A model generated the notes under the pieces. The model was not told the origin of the DNA and made no database searches. It saw only the letters and a list, made by a program, of their open reading frames with translations. From assembly GCF_009914755.1 (NCBI RefSeq), contig NC_060929.1: a stretch of 64,000 bases of DNA; one strand, given 5' to 3'. A program made the translations under genes and the position numbers. How positions within the stretch are numbered: the first letter of the stretch is position 1; each line of letters opens with the position of its first letter. This document shows, piece by piece, positions 1-17,185 of this stretch. This DNA is from the human T2T-CHM13v2.0 reference genome, Homo sapiens.

Positions 1-2474
<2,474 letters not shown>

Positions 2475-2475
2475 A

Positions 2476-3227
2476 TTTTTTTTTCAAAACTGTATTCTGG
2501 TTCTCATCTAATGTTCCACTTGCTCGTCAAGATCTCATCCATTCCATAGCTTAGAATACTATTCATAATCTGACCATGCCTACATTTACATATTTGGAAT
2601 AGAAGTATATAATTCTGTTCTATACTTTGTATTTTATATAGTCATGCCCTGCATAATGACATTACAGTCAACAATGAACTGCATACATGATGGGACTCCC
2701 ATAAGCTTATAAGGTCATCATATCATATTTTTACTGTACCTTTTCTATGTTTAGATATGTTTAGATACACAAATGCTTACCATTGTGTTACAATTGCCTA
2801 CATAATTCAGTACAATACTATGCTGTACAGGTTGGTAGCCTGGGAACAATAGACCATATCATCTAGCCTAGGTGTGTAGTAGGCAATAGTCTCTAGGTTT
2901 GAATAAGTACACTCTACAATGTTTAAACAATGATGAAATTGCCTAATGACACATTTCTCAGAATGTTTTCCCATTGTTAAGCAACAAGAGCCTCTCTTGC
3001 TCTGTTTATGTACATATATGCCATCTCTATTGAATATTCTTATGTGTGATTTAAATTTAACTATCTAAAATTAAACTGAAATTTTTGCTTTGTAAGCTTA
3101 ATATATAATGAATATTTTTAAACCTCAGTTCAGAATCATAACATTTTCATCGAAATCACTCCTCTCTTGACTTTTAGTTTAGGCTGATTATTTCTCTTCT
3201 AGCTGATTTCTATAGGTTGGAGTTTTT
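2476..3227 (-). repeat. Derived inverted, permuted copy of 5337-6104
   Basis: 2476-~3085 is the reverse complement of ~5337-5950, and 3084-3227 is the reverse complement of 5961-6104. Hand counts gave 13/144 and 6/70 mismatches. Confidence 0.93.
2640..2986 (-). mobile_element. Tigger3a (MER7A-type) DNA transposon, duplicated copy
   Basis: TIR-like AGTCATGCCCTGCATAATGAC and the internal motif TTTAGATATGTTTAGATACACAAAT match the recalled Tigger3a consensus. Confidence 0.85.
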
Positions 3228-3229
3228 TA

Positions 3230-3940
3230 GGGATTACTTTTCCTTTCTTTGAAGAACAGTCTGCATTTCCAGCCTAATAGCTCTGTGATCTACTGTGGTA
3301 GTACCCAAAAAGTCTGAAAGTTTTTCTTTGTTCTTCCCACATTCTCTGTCTTCTTTAGTTCAAACTGGCAGCACTTGCCAGTGGTTAATCCCATTTCTAT
3401 TCCTGGCTTCTGCTGAAATGGTTTACTCCAGGAGTTGAACCTGTAATGTCTTTATGAAATGATTGCTCAGGCACACCTTAGTGTTGTCTCTCAGAACAAG
3501 CTTTCTCATTTTGTTCAATATAGATAGGCTGAAACATTCCCAAATATTTATGTTCTGTCTTTTGTTGTCATTGTGAAAAATGTTCTCTTCAATTCATCTC
3601 TCTCCTTTTGCATTTTACTATTAATAGTCAGAAGGATCCAAGTTGCTCTTTCAACACTTCCTTACAAATCTCCATAGCTAATTACCCTACTTCATTGCTT
3701 GCTAGTTCTACTTCCACAAAACACTAGAACACAGTTCAGCCATGTTCTTTGCCACTTTATAACAAAGATCACCTTTTCTCTAGTTTCCATAACCTATTCT
3801 TCATTTCCATGTGAGACCTCACCAGAATCACCATTAACATCCATATTTCTGGCATGTATTTCAAAACTCTTTTAGCCTCTACCCATTATCCAGTTCAAAG
3901 ACTGCTTCCACAGCAGTAACCCATTTCTCAGTACCAAAAC
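3230..3940 (-). mobile_element. MLT1 internal region (MaLR)
   Basis: Ends in CCCATTTCTCAGTACCAAA directly before the LTR. Contains MaLR-int motifs (GAGACCTCACCAGAAT, CCCATTATCCAGTTCAAAG). Confidence 0.65.
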
Positions 3941-4611
3941 CTATCTGGGTTAGTTCAGACTGCTATCACAAAACACCATAGACTGTGTGGCCTAAACAAC
4001 AGAAATTCATTACCTTATAGCCTAGAGACTGGAAGTTCCAAGATCATTGTCCCAGCCTGGTCAAATTCCAGTGAAATTTTTCATTCTTGTTTACAGGTCA
4101 CTGCCATCTTATTGGATACATATTTGTGCATATGAGGAGAGACAGCAAGTTCATCTCTTCTGATAAGGACAATCTTTATATTAGATGAAGTTTCCACCTT
4201 TACGATGCTATTTAATGTTAATCACTTTTTTTTTTTTGAGATGGAGTCTTGCACCATCGCCCAGGCTGGAGTGCAGCAGTGCAATCTCGGCTCACTGCAA
4301 CCTCCACTTCCCGGGTTCAAGCTGGGACTTTCTCAGTCTCCCGAGTAGCTGGGACTACAGGCGCCTGCCACCACACCCGGCTAATTTTTCTATTTTTAGT
4401 AGAGATGAGATTTCATCTTGTTGGTCAGGCTGGTCTCGAACTCCTGACCTAAGGTAATCTACCCACCTCAGCCTCCCAAAGTGCTGGGATTACAGGCATG
4501 AGCCACCATGCCTGGCCTGTTAATCACCTTTTTAAAGGCCCTGTCTCCAATGTAGTCACAAAGGCAGTATTAAAGCTTCAACATATGAATTTGTCTATTC
4601 AGTCTACAGCA
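3941..4611 (-). mobile_element. MLT1A-type LTR interrupted by an Alu
   Basis: TGCTATCACAAAACACCATAGACTG...AAACAACAGAAATT...AAAGGCCCTGTCTCCAA...GCTTCAACATATGAATTT. Confidence 0.75.
4226..4517 (-). mobile_element. AluS element
   Basis: Full dimeric Alu with leading poly-T. TSD TGTTAATCAC on both sides. Confidence 0.95.
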
Positions 4612-4729
4612 GATAACCATTGGACTGTATTTGTAAAATCTGAAAAATTATGTATCACATAATGACTGAGAAATCATCCTAGATCTCTCTTTCTAGGCGT
4701 TCAATAAATAATGACCTCATACTGTTAAT

Positions 4730-6060
4730 TAAACAAAGAATTGTTGTTCTAGATACTGTGTTAGGGGCCAGATATAAGTGAACAAATGAGAGCTAATTGT
4801 TGATCACTTATATTTGGTGTAATAAATACTAATAAATGAAAAACTCCCAGTGTAAGAAAAAGTGTGGGATTAGCAAAGGGTTCCCTGAGAAAATTAAAGG
4901 TAAATTGAAATCTAAATGCAGAATTGAAGTCTTGGAAGCGTTCCAGGAAAGAACAGCTCTGATAGTAATCAGCATGTGCAAAGGTGAAAAGACTAAAGCA
5001 TATTAAATGACCTGAAAGAAGACTGAATTAGAAATGACTAATTTAATTTTTAAATTCATTACTTTGGTTTTTCAAGGAAAAATAGTTTGGAATGGGACAG
5101 CGGAAGCAAAGAAACAACTTAGGAAACCATCTCCTAGACCAGCAGAGAAGGCATGGTCACTCAAAATGGGGGTGCAGAAAGATTGGGGATATAGTAAGAA
5201 TGTAGTATAATATCATATGGTAATAAATTGAATATTTATGGCATAATGGAAGTAATAAGATTAGTGACTTCCAGATTTATGGTACTCAAAACATGCATGG
5301 AGTGGTGACTTACTGTATGTAAGAGGTGGAGAATTGAAATTTTTCAGTTTAATTTTAGATAGTTAAATTTAAATCACACATAAGAACATTCAATAGAGAT
5401 TGCATATATGTACATAAACATAGAGAGAGGGTCTTCTGTTGCTTAACAATGGGAAAACATTCTGAGAAATGTGTCATTAGGGGATTTTATCATTGTTTAA
5501 ACATCATAGAGTGTACTTATTCAAACCTAGAGAGTATTGCCTACTACACACCTAGGCTAGATGATATGGTCTATTGTTCCTAGACTACAAACCTGTGTAG
5601 CATAGTACTGTACTGAATTCTGTAGGCAATTGTGACACAATGGTAAGTATTTGTGTATCTAAACATATCTAAACATAGAAAAAGTACAGTAAAAATATGA
5701 TATGATAACCTTATAAGTTTATGGGAGCACCATCGTGTATATAGTTCATTGTTGACTGTAATGTCATTATGCAGGGCATGACTATATAAATAAAATACAA
5801 AATATTGAAGAGAATTATATACTTCTATTCCAAATATGTAAATGTAGGCATGGTCAGATTATGAATAGTATTCTAAGCTATGGAGTAGATGAGATCTTGA
5901 AGAGCAAGTGGAACGTTAGATGAGAAACAGAATAAAGTTTTGAAAAAAAACACAAAAAACAAAAACTCCAACCTATAGAAATCAGGCAGAGGAGAAACAA
6001 TCAGCCTAAACTAAAAGTCAAGACAAGTGTGATTTAGATAAAAATGTTATGATTCTGAAT
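4730..6060 (-). mobile_element. Degenerate L2 (host of Tigger3a; donor locus of the duplication)
   Basis: L2-like motifs run across the Tigger3a: ACTGTGTTAGGGG, GTTCCAGGAAAGAACAGC...CATGTGCAAAGG, AAGCTATGGAGTAGATGAGATC. Confidence 0.55.
5431..5783 (+). mobile_element. Tigger3a (MER7A-type) DNA transposon
   Basis: GCTTAACAATGGG...TTCTGAGAAATGTGTCATTAGG...CCTACTACACACCTAGGCTA...GGGCATGACTA; about 350 bp. Confidence 0.88.
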
Positions 6061-6641
6061 TGATGTTTAAAACTATTCATTATATATTAAGCTCACAAAG
6101 CAAAGAGTAAAATATCGTATCTTTAATAGATTATTTTCAAATCTATCCATGCATTGAAATAATAAATTTAAGAAAAATAGTGAAGTTGATATTTGTAGGT
6201 GTTGAATTGCGAGACTTTTTTTGTTTTTTTTAAATTTTTTTGTTAAACTTATTTTATTTTCTTCATTTTCTCTACAGAATATACATTTTGTTTGTAATAT
6301 AAACATCAAATTTATTTTGAATCTAAAAGTACATTAAATGCTTGTATCTTATGAAAAGAGGAAAGGCAAATCTTGTAAGCTACTATGAAATATATAATTT
6401 AGTAAACTTGACATAAATTAGGGTCTCTCTGATTAAATATATTTATAGGTCAGTGACATACTCAGAATCTTTCTTTTAGGCTGTAATGTATATTTCTGTA
6501 TATACTATTGTTTATTTGAAAGGAAATACATTTTAATTAAAAATAATTAATTGTTTGCTGTCCAGTAAACTTTTTTTATCTCCTGGAGCAAGTAATACCA
6601 GTTTTAAAATACAAGATCAACACACAATTTTGGATAGGTAG

Positions 6642-6993
6642 TGATATGGTTTGGCTGTGTCCTCACCCAAATCTCATCTTGAATTGTAATAATCCCCACA
6701 TGTCAAGGATAGGGCCAGATGAAGATAATTGAATCATGAGGGAGGTTCTCCATACTGTTCTTGTGGTAGTGAACAAGTCTCACAAGACCTGACGGTTTTA
6801 AAAATGGGAGTTCCCCTGCACAAGCTCTCTTGCCTGCTGCCATGTAAGATGTCCTGTTGTTCTTCCTTCATCTTCCACCATGATTGTGAGGCCTCCCCAG
6901 TCATGTGAAACTGAGTCCATTAAAACTATTTTCTTTATAAATTACCCAGTCTCAGGTATGCCTTTGTTAGCAGCATGAGAATGGACTAATACA
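6642..6993 (+). mobile_element. THE1 (B/C-like) solo LTR
   Basis: TGATATGGTTTGGCTGTGT...GACTAATACA termini; 5-bp TSD GGTAG/GGTAA. Confidence 0.92.
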
Positions 6994-9319
6994 GGTAAGT
7001 TTAAGGATTTTTACATATTATTTTTATCACTAGTCTACCTTACAATGGAAAATGAGAATTTATAGGAAAAGAATGTTTTTCACATCCCTGCACTAAAAAG
7101 TATGTGCAAATAAAACACATGGTTTCAAAATGTTATTTATAATAATTATTGGAAAAAATAGAGTTTGATTCAAATATTGAATCAATATTTCAGTGTCCCA
7201 AATTTCCTCTAACCTTAGAGTTAAAATCCATTTAGTTAAGCAGATATCAGTACCTATAGAATCCACATATGCAATAGATGGTATCGTCCCATTATTAAAT
7301 TATTATATTATGAATGACTCAGGATTTCTTTCTAAATATAGTATGCAGTTGTGCTATTTATTTGAAATTCCATCTAACCTATATAGGTAAGTTATACTGG
7401 ATTTGATACAGTTAACATTTCCCTGTTTTGGAGGATTGGATTGATAATCTTTGAGTACATAGCAAGTACCAAAGTTTCAGCTGCTTAAGTCAGATAATTA
7501 CATAAAAATGGAAAAAAATGATAAAAGTGCCAGAGCCTCTGTTTGCCCCTGCTCCTGAAATGACATAAGTATTGAAAAATATGTAAAATATTAATAATGT
7601 TTAATGTCTTACTTGCTTATCTTTAGCCAGATATGAGAACAAATCCAAATTCCAAAGCAACCATTATAAAAGGTTCAGTTTTCCCTCCAGTCAGTTATTA
7701 TGAAGGATGTTGACAGTATATTATCATCATATATCTTTAAATTCTGGCAAGAACTTCATTGTGAAAAGAAGAAATTGAGTTCCACAAAACCTTTATTTAA
7801 CACAGTTTACTTATATGTTAGGATGAATTGATAAAAGTAATTCATTTACTATTATCATTTTTAAAATAGTAGACAATGATAAAATGGACACAGTTCATGG
7901 TCAAGACCTCCTTTCATCTTTTCTCTCCACCCATTAGAAAGCTAAAAAATGTCACCTGGGCATTTTTTTTTCATGCATTAAATTTCAAGCACCATTAAGA
8001 TTAAGATGCTTGGGACAGTGGATAAGAAAAGCTATTTGGTAAATGTATTAAAGCAGGTTAGTGAAAGATCTTAAGTTCTTATCTATACAAGGAGTGAGAG
8101 GGCAATAGATTATGCATTCTAACAATTAAAAATACATCTTCATTTGTTTTGCCAATTCCCCAGATTTATTCCTTAGAGGAGAAATTAAAATTATATGATC
8201 TGAAATATTCTAAAATACAAGAATAATTCTTTTTTAGTAACTTTCCATTAATTTGAAGGAAGATTTCACATTAGACAGTTTTTATTCTAGAATTATGGAT
8301 TCTGAACATCAACTGTAAAAATAGCAGAAATGCAAAATGCAGTTTTTGTCTAACCTTAATAAAATAATTAATAAAGTGTTTCAAAAATAAGTATTTTAAG
8401 GCACAATCAGTTATATAATAATGTTTGTTTCAAAAATAACATTTGTTGCAATGCAATTGATATATAGGAACAATTTAAACATAACAGATTTTACATTTGC
8501 TTCTGTGTGATTTCATTCACGAGAAATCCAAAGTAATCACTGAAAACTGTACCAAGCTGAACCCAATGGCACAGCAATACACAAACACACACACGTACAA
8601 GCTACCTCAATTCACTACGTGTGTTATGAGCCACATCCGTTCACATCTGATGTTATTAATTTCATACAACCGAACTTCAGGTAATTTTCAAGGAAAATTG
8701 ATATATTTATTAAGTATTTATGCAGTTCTTAACCTCTTAACATATACAAAACTGTACTGTCATTTTTATGGGTTTCTATTTTTTCCATAAACCCAGAATA
8801 TTTCCTTATTCATTTTTTCACAGCTGCTAATTTTTAACACTGCATATCTAGAGTTATAGGAGAGCTGACTATAGTATATTTAATGAATTAAACCTACATC
8901 ATTTGTATTTGCATAAAAAGACTGAGAATAAATAAAATTTATACTGATCTTAGGCTCTCTTGGGAATGAAAGATTAATTGGCATCATTAAACCTAGCTAT
9001 AGTATACGTTAAGTCCTTGAGCTGCACAGTTTTCTTTAAGTAGGGTATGTGTTAGTAAAAAAAGGCAATTTATAAAAGTTTTTAGATAATGTATAATAGG
9101 CCTGACTACCTAATATTTATTTTTGTTTTTTATGAGTCAAACCAAAAGATTAACTTTAAAATGTATTAATAAAATGAAACATTTAAAAATATTTTATTTA
9201 CTTAAAATTCTTTATCCCTTAACACCTAAATATATGTTCATATGTAAATGCCTATGTAAGTTCATTATACTCACAAATGTCATTGTCTCTTTGGGTTGGT
9301 GTGATATGGTGATATTTTT

Positions 9320-10219: not shown

Positions 10220-12960
10220 TTTTTTAATTGATAAATTATACATGCATATGTTTATGGGGGTACAAAATAGTGTCATAATATTTGAATACAATGTTGAATG
10301 GTTAAACCAAGTGAGTTAACATATTTATCACCTCAAATATTTAACAATTTTATGATAAGAACTTTTGAAATTCACTCTTTTAGTGAAATTTAAATGTACG
10401 GTATTCAGTTATTAGCTTTATTCTTCATGCTGTGTAACTGATTTCAAAAAGAGGAAAAGAAATGAAATGTATTTTTCCTATCTAAGTAAGGCTTCTACCA
10501 TTTGACTGTATCCTCATTCTCCCCATGGCCCAGTCTCTGATAAATACCTGTAGTAATCTGTTTTCACACTGCTGATAAGGACATACCCAAGACTGAGCAA
10601 TTTACCAAAGAAAGAGGTTTAATGGACTTCCATTTCCACATGGCTGGGGAGACCTCACAATCATGGCAGAAGGCAAGAAGGAGCAAGTCACGTCTTACAT
10701 GGATGACAGCAGGCAAAAATAGAAAGCTTGTGCAGGGAGACCCCCAATACACAAACCATCAGATCTCATGAGACCCATTAACTATCATGAGAACAGCCCA
10801 GGAAAGACCTGCCCCCATGACTCAATCATCTTTCACTAGGTACCCCCTATAACATGTGGGAATAATAGGAATAAAAAGATGAGATTTGGGTGGGGACACA
10901 GGGCCAAACCATATCATTCTGCACCTGGCCCCTCCCAAATCTCAGATCTTCACATTTCAAAACCAATCATGCCTTCCCAACAGTCCCCCAAAGTCTCAAC
11001 TCATTTTAGCATTACCTCAAAAGTCCACAGTCCAATGTATTTTCTGAGATGAGCCAAGTTCCTTCAGCCCATGAGCCTATAAATTCAAAAGCAAGTTAGT
11101 TACTTCCTAGATACAATGGGGGGTATGGGCATTGGGTAAATACAGCCATTCCAAATGGGAGAAATTGGCCAAAACAAAGGGGCTACAGGCCCCATGCAAA
11201 GCCAAAATCTAGCAGGGCAGTCAAATCTAATGCAGGAGGTGAGTACCCATGGTCTTGGGCAGATTCATCCCTGGGGCTTTGCAGAGTATAGTCTCCCTCC
11301 CAGCTGTTTTCACCGCTGATGTTGAGTGTCTGTGGCTTTTCCATGCACACGGTGCAAGCTGTTGGTGGATCTACCATTCTGGGGTCTGGAGGACAGTGGA
11401 TCTCTTCTCACAGCTCCACTAGGTGGTACCCCAGTGGGAACTCTGCATAGGGGCTCTACCCCACATTTCCCTTCTGCACTGTCCTAGCAGAGGTTCTCCA
11501 TGAGAGCTCCACCCCTGCAGCAAACTTTTGCCTGGGCATCCAGGTGTTTGCATACATCTTTTGAAATCTAGGCAGAGGTTCCCAAACCTCAATTCTTGAT
11601 GTGTGTGCACTCACAGGCTCAACACCACGTGGAAGCTGCCAAGGCTTGAGGCTGTACCCTCTGAAACCATGGCTCAAGCTCTGCATTGGCCCCTTTCAGC
11701 CCCAGCTGGAGCAGCTAGGATGGGGGGCACCAAGTCCCTAGGCTGAACACAGCAGAGGGATCCTGGGTCTGGCCCACAAAACCAATTTTTCCTCCTAAAC
11801 CGCCAGGCCTTCGATGGGCTGCCTGAAAGGTCTCTGACATACCCTGGAGACATTTTCCCAATTGCCTTGGTGATTAGCATTTGGCTCCTTGTTACTTATG
11901 CAAATATATGCAGGCTTAAGTTTCGCCTCAGAAAATGGGATTTTCTTTTTTATCAATTTATCAGGCTGCAAATTTTCCAAACTTTTATGCTCTGTTTCCC
12001 TTTTAAAACTGAATGCCTTTAATAGCACCCAACTCACCTCTTGAATGATTTGCCTCTTAAAAATTTCTTCCTCCAGATAACCTAAATTATCTCTCTCGAG
12101 TTCAAAGTTCCAGAAATCTCTAGGGCAGGGGCAAAATGCTGCCAGTCTTTTTGCTAGAACATAACAAGAGTCACCTTTGGTCCAGTGTCCAAAAGGTTCT
12201 GAGACCACCTAAGCCTGGATTTCATTGTCCGTATCATTATCAGCATTTTGGTCAAAGCCATTCAACAAGTCTGTAGGGAGTTCCAAACTTTCCCACATCT
12301 TCCTGTCTTCTTCTGAACCCTCCAAACTGTTCCAACCTCTGCCTGAAACCCAGTTCTAAAGCTGCTTCCACATTTTTCAGGTGTCTTTTCAGCAGTACTC
12401 CACTCCTGGTACCAATTTACTCTATTAGTCCATTTTCACACTGCTGTTAAGGACATACCCAAGACTGGGCAATTTACCAAAGAAAGAAGGTTAACTGGAC
12501 TTACATTCCACCTGGCTGGGAAGGCCTCACAATCATGGTGGAAGGCAAGGAGGAGTAATGTTACATCTTATGTGGATGGTGGCAGGCAAAAAAGAGAGCC
12601 TATGCAGGGACACTCTCGTGTTTAAAATCATCAGATCTCATGAGACCCATTCACTATCATGAGAACAACACAGGAAAGACCCACCCCCATGATTCAATCA
12701 TCTTCCAACAGGTCCCTCCCACAACATGTGGGAATTATGGGAGCTACAAGATGAGATTTTGATGGAGACACAGAGCCAGACCATATCAACACTATTCTAT
12801 TCATTGCTTCCATGAGTTTAATTGTTTTAGATTTCACATGTAAGTCAGAGCATGCAGTATTAGTCTTTCTGTGTTTGACTTATTTCACTTGGTAAATGTC
12901 CGATTTCATCTACATTTTTGCAAATGACATAATTTCTTTGTTTTTAATGCTGAATTTATT
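10220..12960 (-). mobile_element. L1MA-type 3' end split by the THE1 provirus (10220-10548 and 12789-12960)
   Basis: CCCAGTCTCTGATAA / ACTATTCTATTCATTGCTTCCATGAG rejoin across the THE1 to give the L1M 3'UTR antisense sequence. Confidence 0.7.
10549..12788 (-). mobile_element. Complete THE1 (A/B-like) MaLR: LTR 10549-10916, internal 10917-12420, LTR 12421-12788
   Basis: Two homologous LTRs both end CCATATCA. THE1-int motifs lie between them. Degenerate TSD ATACC/ACACT. Confidence 0.93.

Positions 12961-16172: not shown

Positions 16173-17185
<1,013 letters not shown>

What the first reader, a model, noticed from the sequence alone, without database searches (positions are those of the whole stretch)
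2476..6104. Circularly permuted inverted duplication (~750 bp): possible fossil of a reinserted circular DNA
Seen: the donor reads A (~5337-5950), an A-rich tract, then B (5961-6104), embedded in a continuous L2. The copy at 2476-3227, read on the minus strand, has the order B then A. The donor's right end (...CAAAGCAAA) is joined to its left end (AAATTT..CAGTTT) through AAA microhomology, and both outer ends of the copy map to the same internal A-tract (5943-5965). Both segments diverge by a similar ~9% (13/144; 6/70 sampled), consistent with one event. Inference: this is the topology expected if 5337-6104 circularised as microDNA/eccDNA, was reopened at the A-tract and integrated 2 kb away next to MLT1-int. 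Serial template switching (MMBIR/FoSTeS) is the alternative.
Basis: partly seen in the sequence, partly recalled or inferred. Interest (0 to 1): 0.75.

Follow-up and report, generated by a model that had tools for sequence, protein, structure and literature searches.

The report
Inverted, circularly permuted local DNA insertion
A 750-base piece of non-coding human DNA sits 2 kb from its source, flipped and with its two halves swapped, between 10-base repeats; it is likely an old reinserted DNA circle, a known kind of event with an unusual orientation.

Summary
Confirmed. Window 2476-3225 is an inverted copy of 5337/5342-6104/6106 in swapped order (B then A), both outer ends in the donor A-tract; no third locus was found. 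New here: (1) left of the window the LTR-element interior resumes, with no second B, so one unit went in; (2) a 10-bp target-site duplication (9/10) brackets copy plus L1, and 14 of 20 informative paralogs place the flanks as continuous; (3) the adjacent L1 is probably a later insertion in the copy's A-tail: 2.4% from its relatives versus 6.7% copy-donor, with its own A9T duplication. The AAA microhomology is not secure and the L2 host could not be confirmed. Best mechanism (0.42): small DNA circle opened at the A-tract and captured at a staggered break. Rivals: L1 reverse transcription with an end-to-end jump (0.25), serial template switching (0.16). AB-to-BA insertions are a described class (82 in a 2026 preprint); the inverted orientation (1 of 80 there) and the duplication make this a clean, slightly atypical member. 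No function is evident.

The parts
5337..5950 (+). Donor segment A (left end 5337-5342 depending on the junction model); contains a high-copy Tigger-type DNA-transposon remnant at about 5437-5787 (family name recalled)
5931..5936 (+). AATAAA in the donor, 6 nt before the A-tract (AATACA in the copy); about 4.5% of random positions have one within 6-30 nt upstream
5943..5965 (+). Donor A-tract (A8, A6, A5 runs): the opening point; both outer ends of the copy map here
5961..6106 (+). Donor segment B (right end 6104-6106 depending on the junction model)
3084..3225 (-). Copy segment B'; alignment runs 2 nt further (3226-3227) into the target duplication = 2-nt microhomology
3079..3088 (-). Internal B|A junction joining the donor's right end to its left end (the circle-type junction); 0-3 nt microhomology; no splice-site geometry
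2485..3081 (-). Copy segment A'
2475..2484 (-). A9T tail of the copy; in-window copy of the L1's own probable target-site duplication (the other copy is at L009 8519-8528, left of the window); the T is in neither the donor nor 9 of 9 L1 relatives
3226..3235 (+). Outer target-site duplication, right copy (TTTAGGGATT); the left copy (TTTAGGAATT) lies outside the window at L009 8507-8516, i.e. about 1490 nt before window position 1
1..2474 (-). In-window part of a 5'-truncated L1 (3938 nt in all; it continues left to L009 8537, tail at L009 8517-8536); 2.4% from nearest relatives; probably inserted later into the copy's A-tail (L1PA3-like by recall)
3236..4610 (.). Right part of the host LTR element (interior, then LTR with an Alu at about 4226-4517); its left part is L009 ~7470-8516 (MLT1-type by recall)

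Best explanation
The ~770-bp stretch 5337-6106 likely became a small DNA circle in an ancestral primate germ cell, was likely opened inside its A-tract and captured, inverted, at a staggered break 2.1 kb away, leaving the 10-bp repeats that bracket the copy. SHOWN: swapped order, one unit only, both ends in the A-tract, junctions with 0-3 nt of microhomology, 10-bp target duplication, host element continuous across the site, donor intact, no other source found. INFERRED: (1) the ends 5337/42 and 6104/06 were joined by end-joining on a piece from a sister chromatid or an over-replicated strand, since this chromosome keeps the donor; (2) the ring was nicked or primed at the A-tract, whose T-strand carries TTTT/G sites like those cut by L1 endonuclease (recalled consensus), and a few tract bases were lost; (3) fill-in of a 10-nt staggered break made the duplication; (4) formation and capture were coupled in space, because a free circle would hardly land 2 kb from home; (5) about 25-35 million years ago (6.7% divergence, recalled primate rates); (6) a roughly three times younger L1 then used the new TTTT/C site in the copy's tail. 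It is most likely a neutral scar.
For: Permuted topology with ends meeting within one 23-nt tract; rough chance for two independent nearby segments to abut so is under 1e-3 (crude estimate). No second B or A, nor remnant of a tandem copy, in 84 kb. No other source: 3 of 3 candidates for B plus junction are this locus. Duplication: 9/10 match, 5 such matches in 84,000 nt including the two copies; of 38 paralog loci 20 aligned to both flanks and 14 of those gave an overlap of 9-12 (mode 11 = 10-bp duplication plus one T). A and B compatible in divergence (p = 0.18). Junctions with 0-3 nt microhomology resemble those reported for circle-derived duplications (PMC7450558, passages). AB-to-BA insertions are mostly near their source in a 2026 preprint (78 of 80 within 10 Mb). 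ATM-deficient mouse germ cells make ~1.3-kb circles and local inverted insertions from clustered breaks (10.1101/2020.06.23.168138, passages). L1 younger: 49/734 copy-donor differences against 16-22 expected at the L1's age (Poisson p 5e-7 or less), and a nested A9T duplication at a TTTT/C site.
Against: A 10-bp duplication with an A-rich 3' end is the usual mark of L1 target-primed insertion (PMC5110952), and neither circle paper searched for it uses 'target site' (0 hits). In the preprint 79 of 80 intrachromosomal AB-to-BA insertions are in the source's orientation; this one is inverted. The unit is 30% GC, unlike the GC-rich germline circles described; its size is not informative. Sequence alone cannot tell a covalent circle from a linear piece copied with one end-to-end jump. 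For the two-step dating, the donor branch alone (7 of 346 polarised columns, against 12 on the copy branch and 4 unresolved) does not differ significantly from the L1's 27 of 2470 private changes (one-sided p = 0.11).
Confidence: 0.42

Rival explanations
1. L1 ORF2p copied a locally made plus-strand RNA (or single-stranded piece): it primed from the target's nick on the internal A-tract, copied A to the template's 5' end, jumped to the 3' end at 6104-6106, and copied B until it met its own start or the 5' end of a cleavage product. No covalent DNA circle is needed.
For: 10-bp duplication, A-rich 3' end, 2-nt 5' microhomology, correct polarity; AATAAA 6 nt before the tract in the donor. ORF2p jumps templates and adds non-templated bases in vitro (PMC10830420, passages); one adenoma clone co-inserted pre-mRNA from the vicinity of an L1 insertion (PMC10191854, passage); PMC4897178 notes that reverse transcription across open-ended RNA can mimic a circle.
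Against: The nick site reads GATT/A (AATT on the left copy), not TTTT/A; only 2 nt of primer pairing; the tail is 12-14 nt and can be templated by the genomic tract; AATAAA arises by chance at 4.5% of positions and reads AATACA in the copy; no gene is annotated here; trans-mobilised RNAs normally insert far away.
Confidence: 0.25
2. Serial template switching (MMBIR/FoSTeS-like) on chromosomal DNA: a stalled 3' end at the target invaded the A-tract, copied A, switched to 6104, copied B and returned 10 nt behind its exit point.
For: Explains the 2.1-kb distance, the inversion, the intact donor, the small duplication and possible 2-3-nt A/T microhomologies at all three junctions. The copy branch carries more changes (12 vs 7) and there are 6 adjacent double substitutions.
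Against: Needs B to end within ~10 nt of where A began, which independent switches would rarely give (crude estimate under 1e-3) unless synthesis was blocked by its own earlier product. Neither mutation excess is significant (p = 0.36 and p = 0.09).
Confidence: 0.16
3. One event with the adjacent L1: the L1 cDNA switched to the local template at the A-tract, and the outer 10-bp duplication is the L1's.
For: The copy abuts the L1's 5' truncation point; the outer duplication brackets both; the extra base at the junction could be non-templated; templated insertions within L1 insertions are known (10.1101/2024.08.27.596794, passages); donor branch alone does not exclude equal age (p = 0.11).
Against: 6.7% copy-donor divergence against 2.4% L1-relative divergence (Fisher p = 3e-7); would need 3-4% copying error with no strand-biased signature; the same T closes an A-run at both L1 ends; known templated L1 insertions are mostly under 250 bp and within 15 bp of the site.
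Confidence: 0.07
4. The donor was once a tandem AB-AB duplication; a B-A unit between its two A-tracts was copied out, and the tandem later collapsed or was lost.
For: A tandem duplication has the same B|A junction; tandem duplications and circles arise together from double cuts; PMC7188851 names tandem duplication plus partial deletion as a typical false positive.
Against: No remnant of a second A or B near the donor; needs the copied piece to be one exact unit and a clean later loss.
Confidence: 0.07

Closest known systems
AB-to-BA ('eccDNA-mediated') polymorphic insertions, Zhang et al. bioRxiv 10.64898/2026.09.03.749254 (read: parts 1-3 of 8, methods section 29, term search; supplements not seen)
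   Same: Cyclic shift of source order, source span under 5 kb, unique source, intergenic, same chromosome and near the source.
   Different: Theirs are polymorphic and 79 of 80 keep the source's orientation; this one is inverted, old (6.7% diverged) and has a 10-bp target duplication, a term absent from their main text. The methods section read states no tandem-duplication filter; my inference is that same-strand near-source cases can be reread as tandem duplications, which this one cannot.
eccDNA-mediated duplications, Takahashi and Innan 2020, PMC7188851 (read: parts 1-3 of 4; supplementary file 2 searched for chr5)
   Same: Same diagnostic: two offset parallel lines, efghij-abcd order.
   Different: Three cases of about 20-130 kb drawn from a segmental-duplication set; none of the 12 chr5 entries in file 2 lies near 101 Mb.
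Circular-DNA-mediated segmental duplication pairs, Chicote et al. 2020, PMC7450558 (passages only)
   Same: Swapped block order, 0-2-nt microhomology or short indels at the joins, 93% identity in the oldest cases.
   Different: The six table rows seen are 82 kb to 3.9 Mb and 1.8 Mb or more from the source; here 0.77 kb and 2.1 kb.
Class 1 templated sequence insertion polymorphisms, Onozawa and Aplan 2016, PMC5110952 (read: parts 1-2 of 4)
   Same: Target duplication of 5 bp or more, A-rich 3' end, AATAAA shortly upstream in the donor.
   Different: Class 1 has 10-40 non-templated A, a TTTT/A site and a distant source; here the tail can be templated, the site is GATT/A, the source is local and the order is permuted.
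circRNA-derived pseudogenes, Dong et al. 2016, PMC4897178 (read: part 1 of 2, the main text)
   Same: Non-colinear order with a short A-tail.
   Different: Defined by a back-spliced exon-exon junction; here no annotated gene, and the junction keeps the would-be acceptor CAG inside the copy.

Membership tests
AB-to-BA circularly permuted (eccDNA-type) insertion | [quoted passage not shown] | tested here: met
AB-to-BA circularly permuted (eccDNA-type) insertion | At least 95% of source covered, little block overlap | tested here: met
   A 5337/42-5950 and B 5961-6104/06 leave about 10 of 768 nt, all in the A-tract
AB-to-BA circularly permuted (eccDNA-type) insertion | Single unique source | tested here: met
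   3 of 3 candidates are this locus; 2 of 2; the search tool skips very common words
AB-to-BA circularly permuted (eccDNA-type) insertion | Not a tandem-duplication-plus-deletion look-alike | tested here: inconclusive
   No remnant in 84 kb; ancestral state needs orthologs
AB-to-BA circularly permuted (eccDNA-type) insertion | Physical DNA circle as the intermediate | not testable with these tools
   Sequence cannot separate a covalent circle from an end-to-end jump
L1-mediated insertion (class 1 TSIP) | Target-site duplication of 5 bp or more | tested here: met
   10 bp, 9/10
L1-mediated insertion (class 1 TSIP) | TTTT/A endonuclease site at the first nick | tested here: not met
   GATT/A on the right copy, AATT on the left
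L1-mediated insertion (class 1 TSIP) | 10-40 non-templated A | tested here: inconclusive
   12-14-nt tail, explicable from the genomic tract and disturbed by the later L1
L1-mediated insertion (class 1 TSIP) | AATAAA 10-20 nt upstream of the tail | tested here: inconclusive
   AATAAA in donor 6 nt before the tract, AATACA in copy; 4.5% by chance
L1-mediated insertion (class 1 TSIP) | Distant source | tested here: not met
   2.1 kb away, and permuted
circRNA-derived pseudogene | Junction joins a splice donor to an upstream acceptor | tested here: not met
   GT follows 6106 but no AG precedes 5342; CAG retained in the copy
Templated insertion at an L1 5' end (same event) | Copy and L1 of equal age | tested here: not met
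   6.7% vs 2.4% pairwise; donor-branch test alone inconclusive, p = 0.11
Rolling-circle or concatemer insertion | More than one unit inserted | tested here: not met
   No further A or B left of the L1

The most novel reading that the evidence does not exclude
L1 ORF2p can write a nascent, locus-tethered RNA (or a small local circle) back into its own neighbourhood in circularly permuted form: priming on an internal A-tract, one end-to-end template jump, and a stop at its own start. If so, part of what is now counted as reintegrated eccDNA in the human germline is L1 reverse-transcriptase output, recognisable by 7-20-bp target duplications and an A-tract opening point, and this locus is a fossil example.
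Probability: 0.22. Interest if true: 0.6.

Novelty: new member of a known kind. Interest (0 to 1): 0.33.

Why it matters
No function is suggested: the piece is largely repeat-derived, non-coding DNA in a gene desert. Its value is as a mechanistic specimen. How small permuted insertions enter the germline is open: circle reintegration is inferred from block order alone, and same-strand near-source cases can be confused with tandem duplications. This case is inverted, separated from its donor by 2.1 kb of unrelated DNA, and has all three junctions and a target duplication resolved to within a few bases, so it cannot be a plain tandem duplication. It suggests three features to score across the class (target duplication, endonuclease motif, A-tract opening) that would separate repair capture of circles from L1 reverse transcription, and it shows that old, sub-kilobase cases fall between the published screens read here (segmental-duplication sets; polymorphic insertions).

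Tried and rejected
Third-locus donor: not found. Concatemer or rolling-circle insertion: no second unit. Back-spliced circular RNA: junction geometry does not fit. Separate ages for A' and B': not supported (p = 0.18). Error-prone copying signature: copy 12 vs donor 7 changes (p = 0.36), 6 adjacent double changes (p = 0.09), no strand bias apparent (with 6 outgroups 13 vs 7). L2 continuity across 5337 and across the A-tract: no significant hit, left unconfirmed. Nucleosome-multiple size: 768-770 nt is not informative. In one search, 18 of 38 paralog loci did not pass the filter for aligning to both flanks, and 6 of the 20 that did gave other overlaps (14, 24, 24, 102, -313, -360). A paper search for 2-6-kb templated micro-insertions returned 0 papers. 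A genome-wide survey for similar local permuted copies could not be run, and no primate orthologs or repeat-family library were available, so family names (MLT1, Tigger, L1PA3, Alu, L2) are recalled. Earlier scan findings were not available.
Full report
Observation. Self-comparison gives two offset anti-diagonals: 2477-3081 against 5950-5342 (92.8%) and 3084-3227 against 6104-5961 (91.0%). Read on the minus strand the copy is B then A, whereas the donor is A, A-tract, B; both outer ends of the copy fall in the tract 5943-5965. Excluding ends, A differs at 36 of 595 and B at 13 of 139 columns; these rates are compatible (p = 0.18). The internal junction is best fitted by a blunt join of 6106 to 5342 with one junction change, next by 3-nt AAA microhomology with two changes; untemplated bases are also possible.

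What lies left of the window. The 20 kb to the left were fetched. The L1 that abuts the copy ends about 1460 nt before the window start (3938 nt in all); beyond its tail the interior of the same LTR element resumes, then its other LTR (LTR halves 69% and 79% alike). No further A or B is present in 84 kb. A 10-mer, TTTAGG(A/G)ATT, stands at both outer edges (L009 8507-8516; window 3226-3235). Matches of 9/10 to it occur 5 times in 84,000 nt, the two copies included. To test whether it is a target duplication, each flank was aligned separately to 38 paralogous loci: 20 aligned to both flanks, and 14 of these placed the flanks with an overlap of 9-12 nt (9 at exactly 11, which with the start used equals the 10-mer plus one T); 6 gave other values. 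The host element is therefore continuous with no sign of deletion, 2476-3225 is the insertion and 5337-6106 the donor.

Two events, probably. The L1 differs from the 9 relatives fetched by 2.35-2.55% and has 27 of 2470 private changes; copy and donor differ at 49 of 734 (6.7%). At the L1's age 16-22 differences would be expected (Poisson p 5e-7 or less). An A-run closed by a T stands at both L1 ends; that T is in neither the donor nor 9 of 9 L1 relatives, which reads as the L1's own duplication at a TTTT/C site. Against: with 18 paralogs of the internal transposon as outgroups, 7 changes fall on the donor, 12 on the copy and 4 are unresolved in 346 columns; the donor branch alone is not significantly longer than the L1's (p = 0.11), though the copy branch is (p = 0.002). 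By recalled primate rates the copy is about 25-35 million years old and the L1 about 10-15.

Mechanism. To be explained: one-unit permutation with about 10 nt lost, opening in the A-tract, 0-3-nt joins, a 10-bp duplication, inversion, and a 2.1-kb distance. A template whose two ends are joined explains the first three. I favour a small DNA circle captured at a nearby staggered break (0.42): joins resemble those of circle-derived duplications, published AB-to-BA insertions are mostly near their source, and clustered germline breaks yield circles of this order of size and local inverted insertions in ATM-deficient mice. The duplication, A-rich 3' end and 2-nt 5' microhomology point instead to L1 ORF2p (0.25), which jumps templates in vitro and has once been seen to co-insert nearby pre-mRNA; but the nick site is GATT/A, the tail can be templated, and the donor's AATAAA (5931-5936) has a 4.5% chance rate and reads AATACA in the copy. 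Serial template switching (0.16) explains locality and inversion but needs B to stop where A began. A single event with the adjacent L1 (0.07) conflicts with the divergences and with the size and distance of known L1-linked templated insertions. A lost tandem donor (0.07) has no remnant. All steps of formation are inferred; only the product is shown.

Comparison with what is known. The topology is the published diagnostic for circle-mediated duplication (PMC7188851; PMC7450558), and a 2026 preprint reports 82 polymorphic AB-to-BA insertions among 327 source-resolved ones. This locus meets the order, coverage and uniqueness criteria. It differs in being inverted (1 of 80 there), old, and bracketed by a target duplication ('target site' 0 hits in that preprint and in PMC7450558). 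It fails class 1 TSIP on nick site and distance and fails circRNA pseudogene on junction geometry. The locus is not among the 12 chr5 entries of Takahashi and Innan's supplementary file 2; the preprint's table was not seen, but it lists polymorphic alleles, so an old copy is unlikely to be there (inference). Ten full-text searches were for the class, not for coordinates, so I cannot claim that the locus is not in print. Papers seen only as listings are not relied on; PMC10581685, PMC13532658, PMC10830420, PMC10191854, PMC7450558, 10.1101/2024.08.27.596794 and 10.1101/2020.06.23.168138 were seen as passages.

Verdict. A real, well-resolved, probably neutral scar; a new member of a known class with an atypical orientation and an L1-like duplication that keeps its mechanism open. 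Interest 0.33.

Noticed in passing
window 16176-17161: An internal L1 piece (16184-17117, minus orientation, 96.9% identical to the matching part of the L1 next to the copy) is followed by a plus-strand A-rich tail and bracketed by an 18-nt direct repeat (16176-16193, 17144-17161); it looks like a twin-primed insertion of which almost only the inverted part remains.
   Followed up: partly
window 4216-4527: An Alu inside the right LTR has a 10-nt target duplication (TGTTAATCAC); if it came later, target and donor were about 1.8 kb apart at the time of the event.
   Followed up: partly
window 5437-5787 and 2636-2986: The copied piece carries a ~350-bp Tigger-type remnant (name recalled), so this element was duplicated passively; donor and copy are 9.9% and 11.1% from the majority base of 18 paralogs.
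   Followed up: partly
window 6642-6997, 10545-10916, 12420-12788: Three related ~370-bp repeats (solo-LTR-like by recall) within 6 kb, 72-82% alike, one inverted to the others.
   Followed up: no
L009 ~7470-8516 and window 3226-4610: The host LTR element has two LTRs plus interior and has taken three insertions: the permuted copy, the L1 within it, and an Alu.
   Followed up: partly
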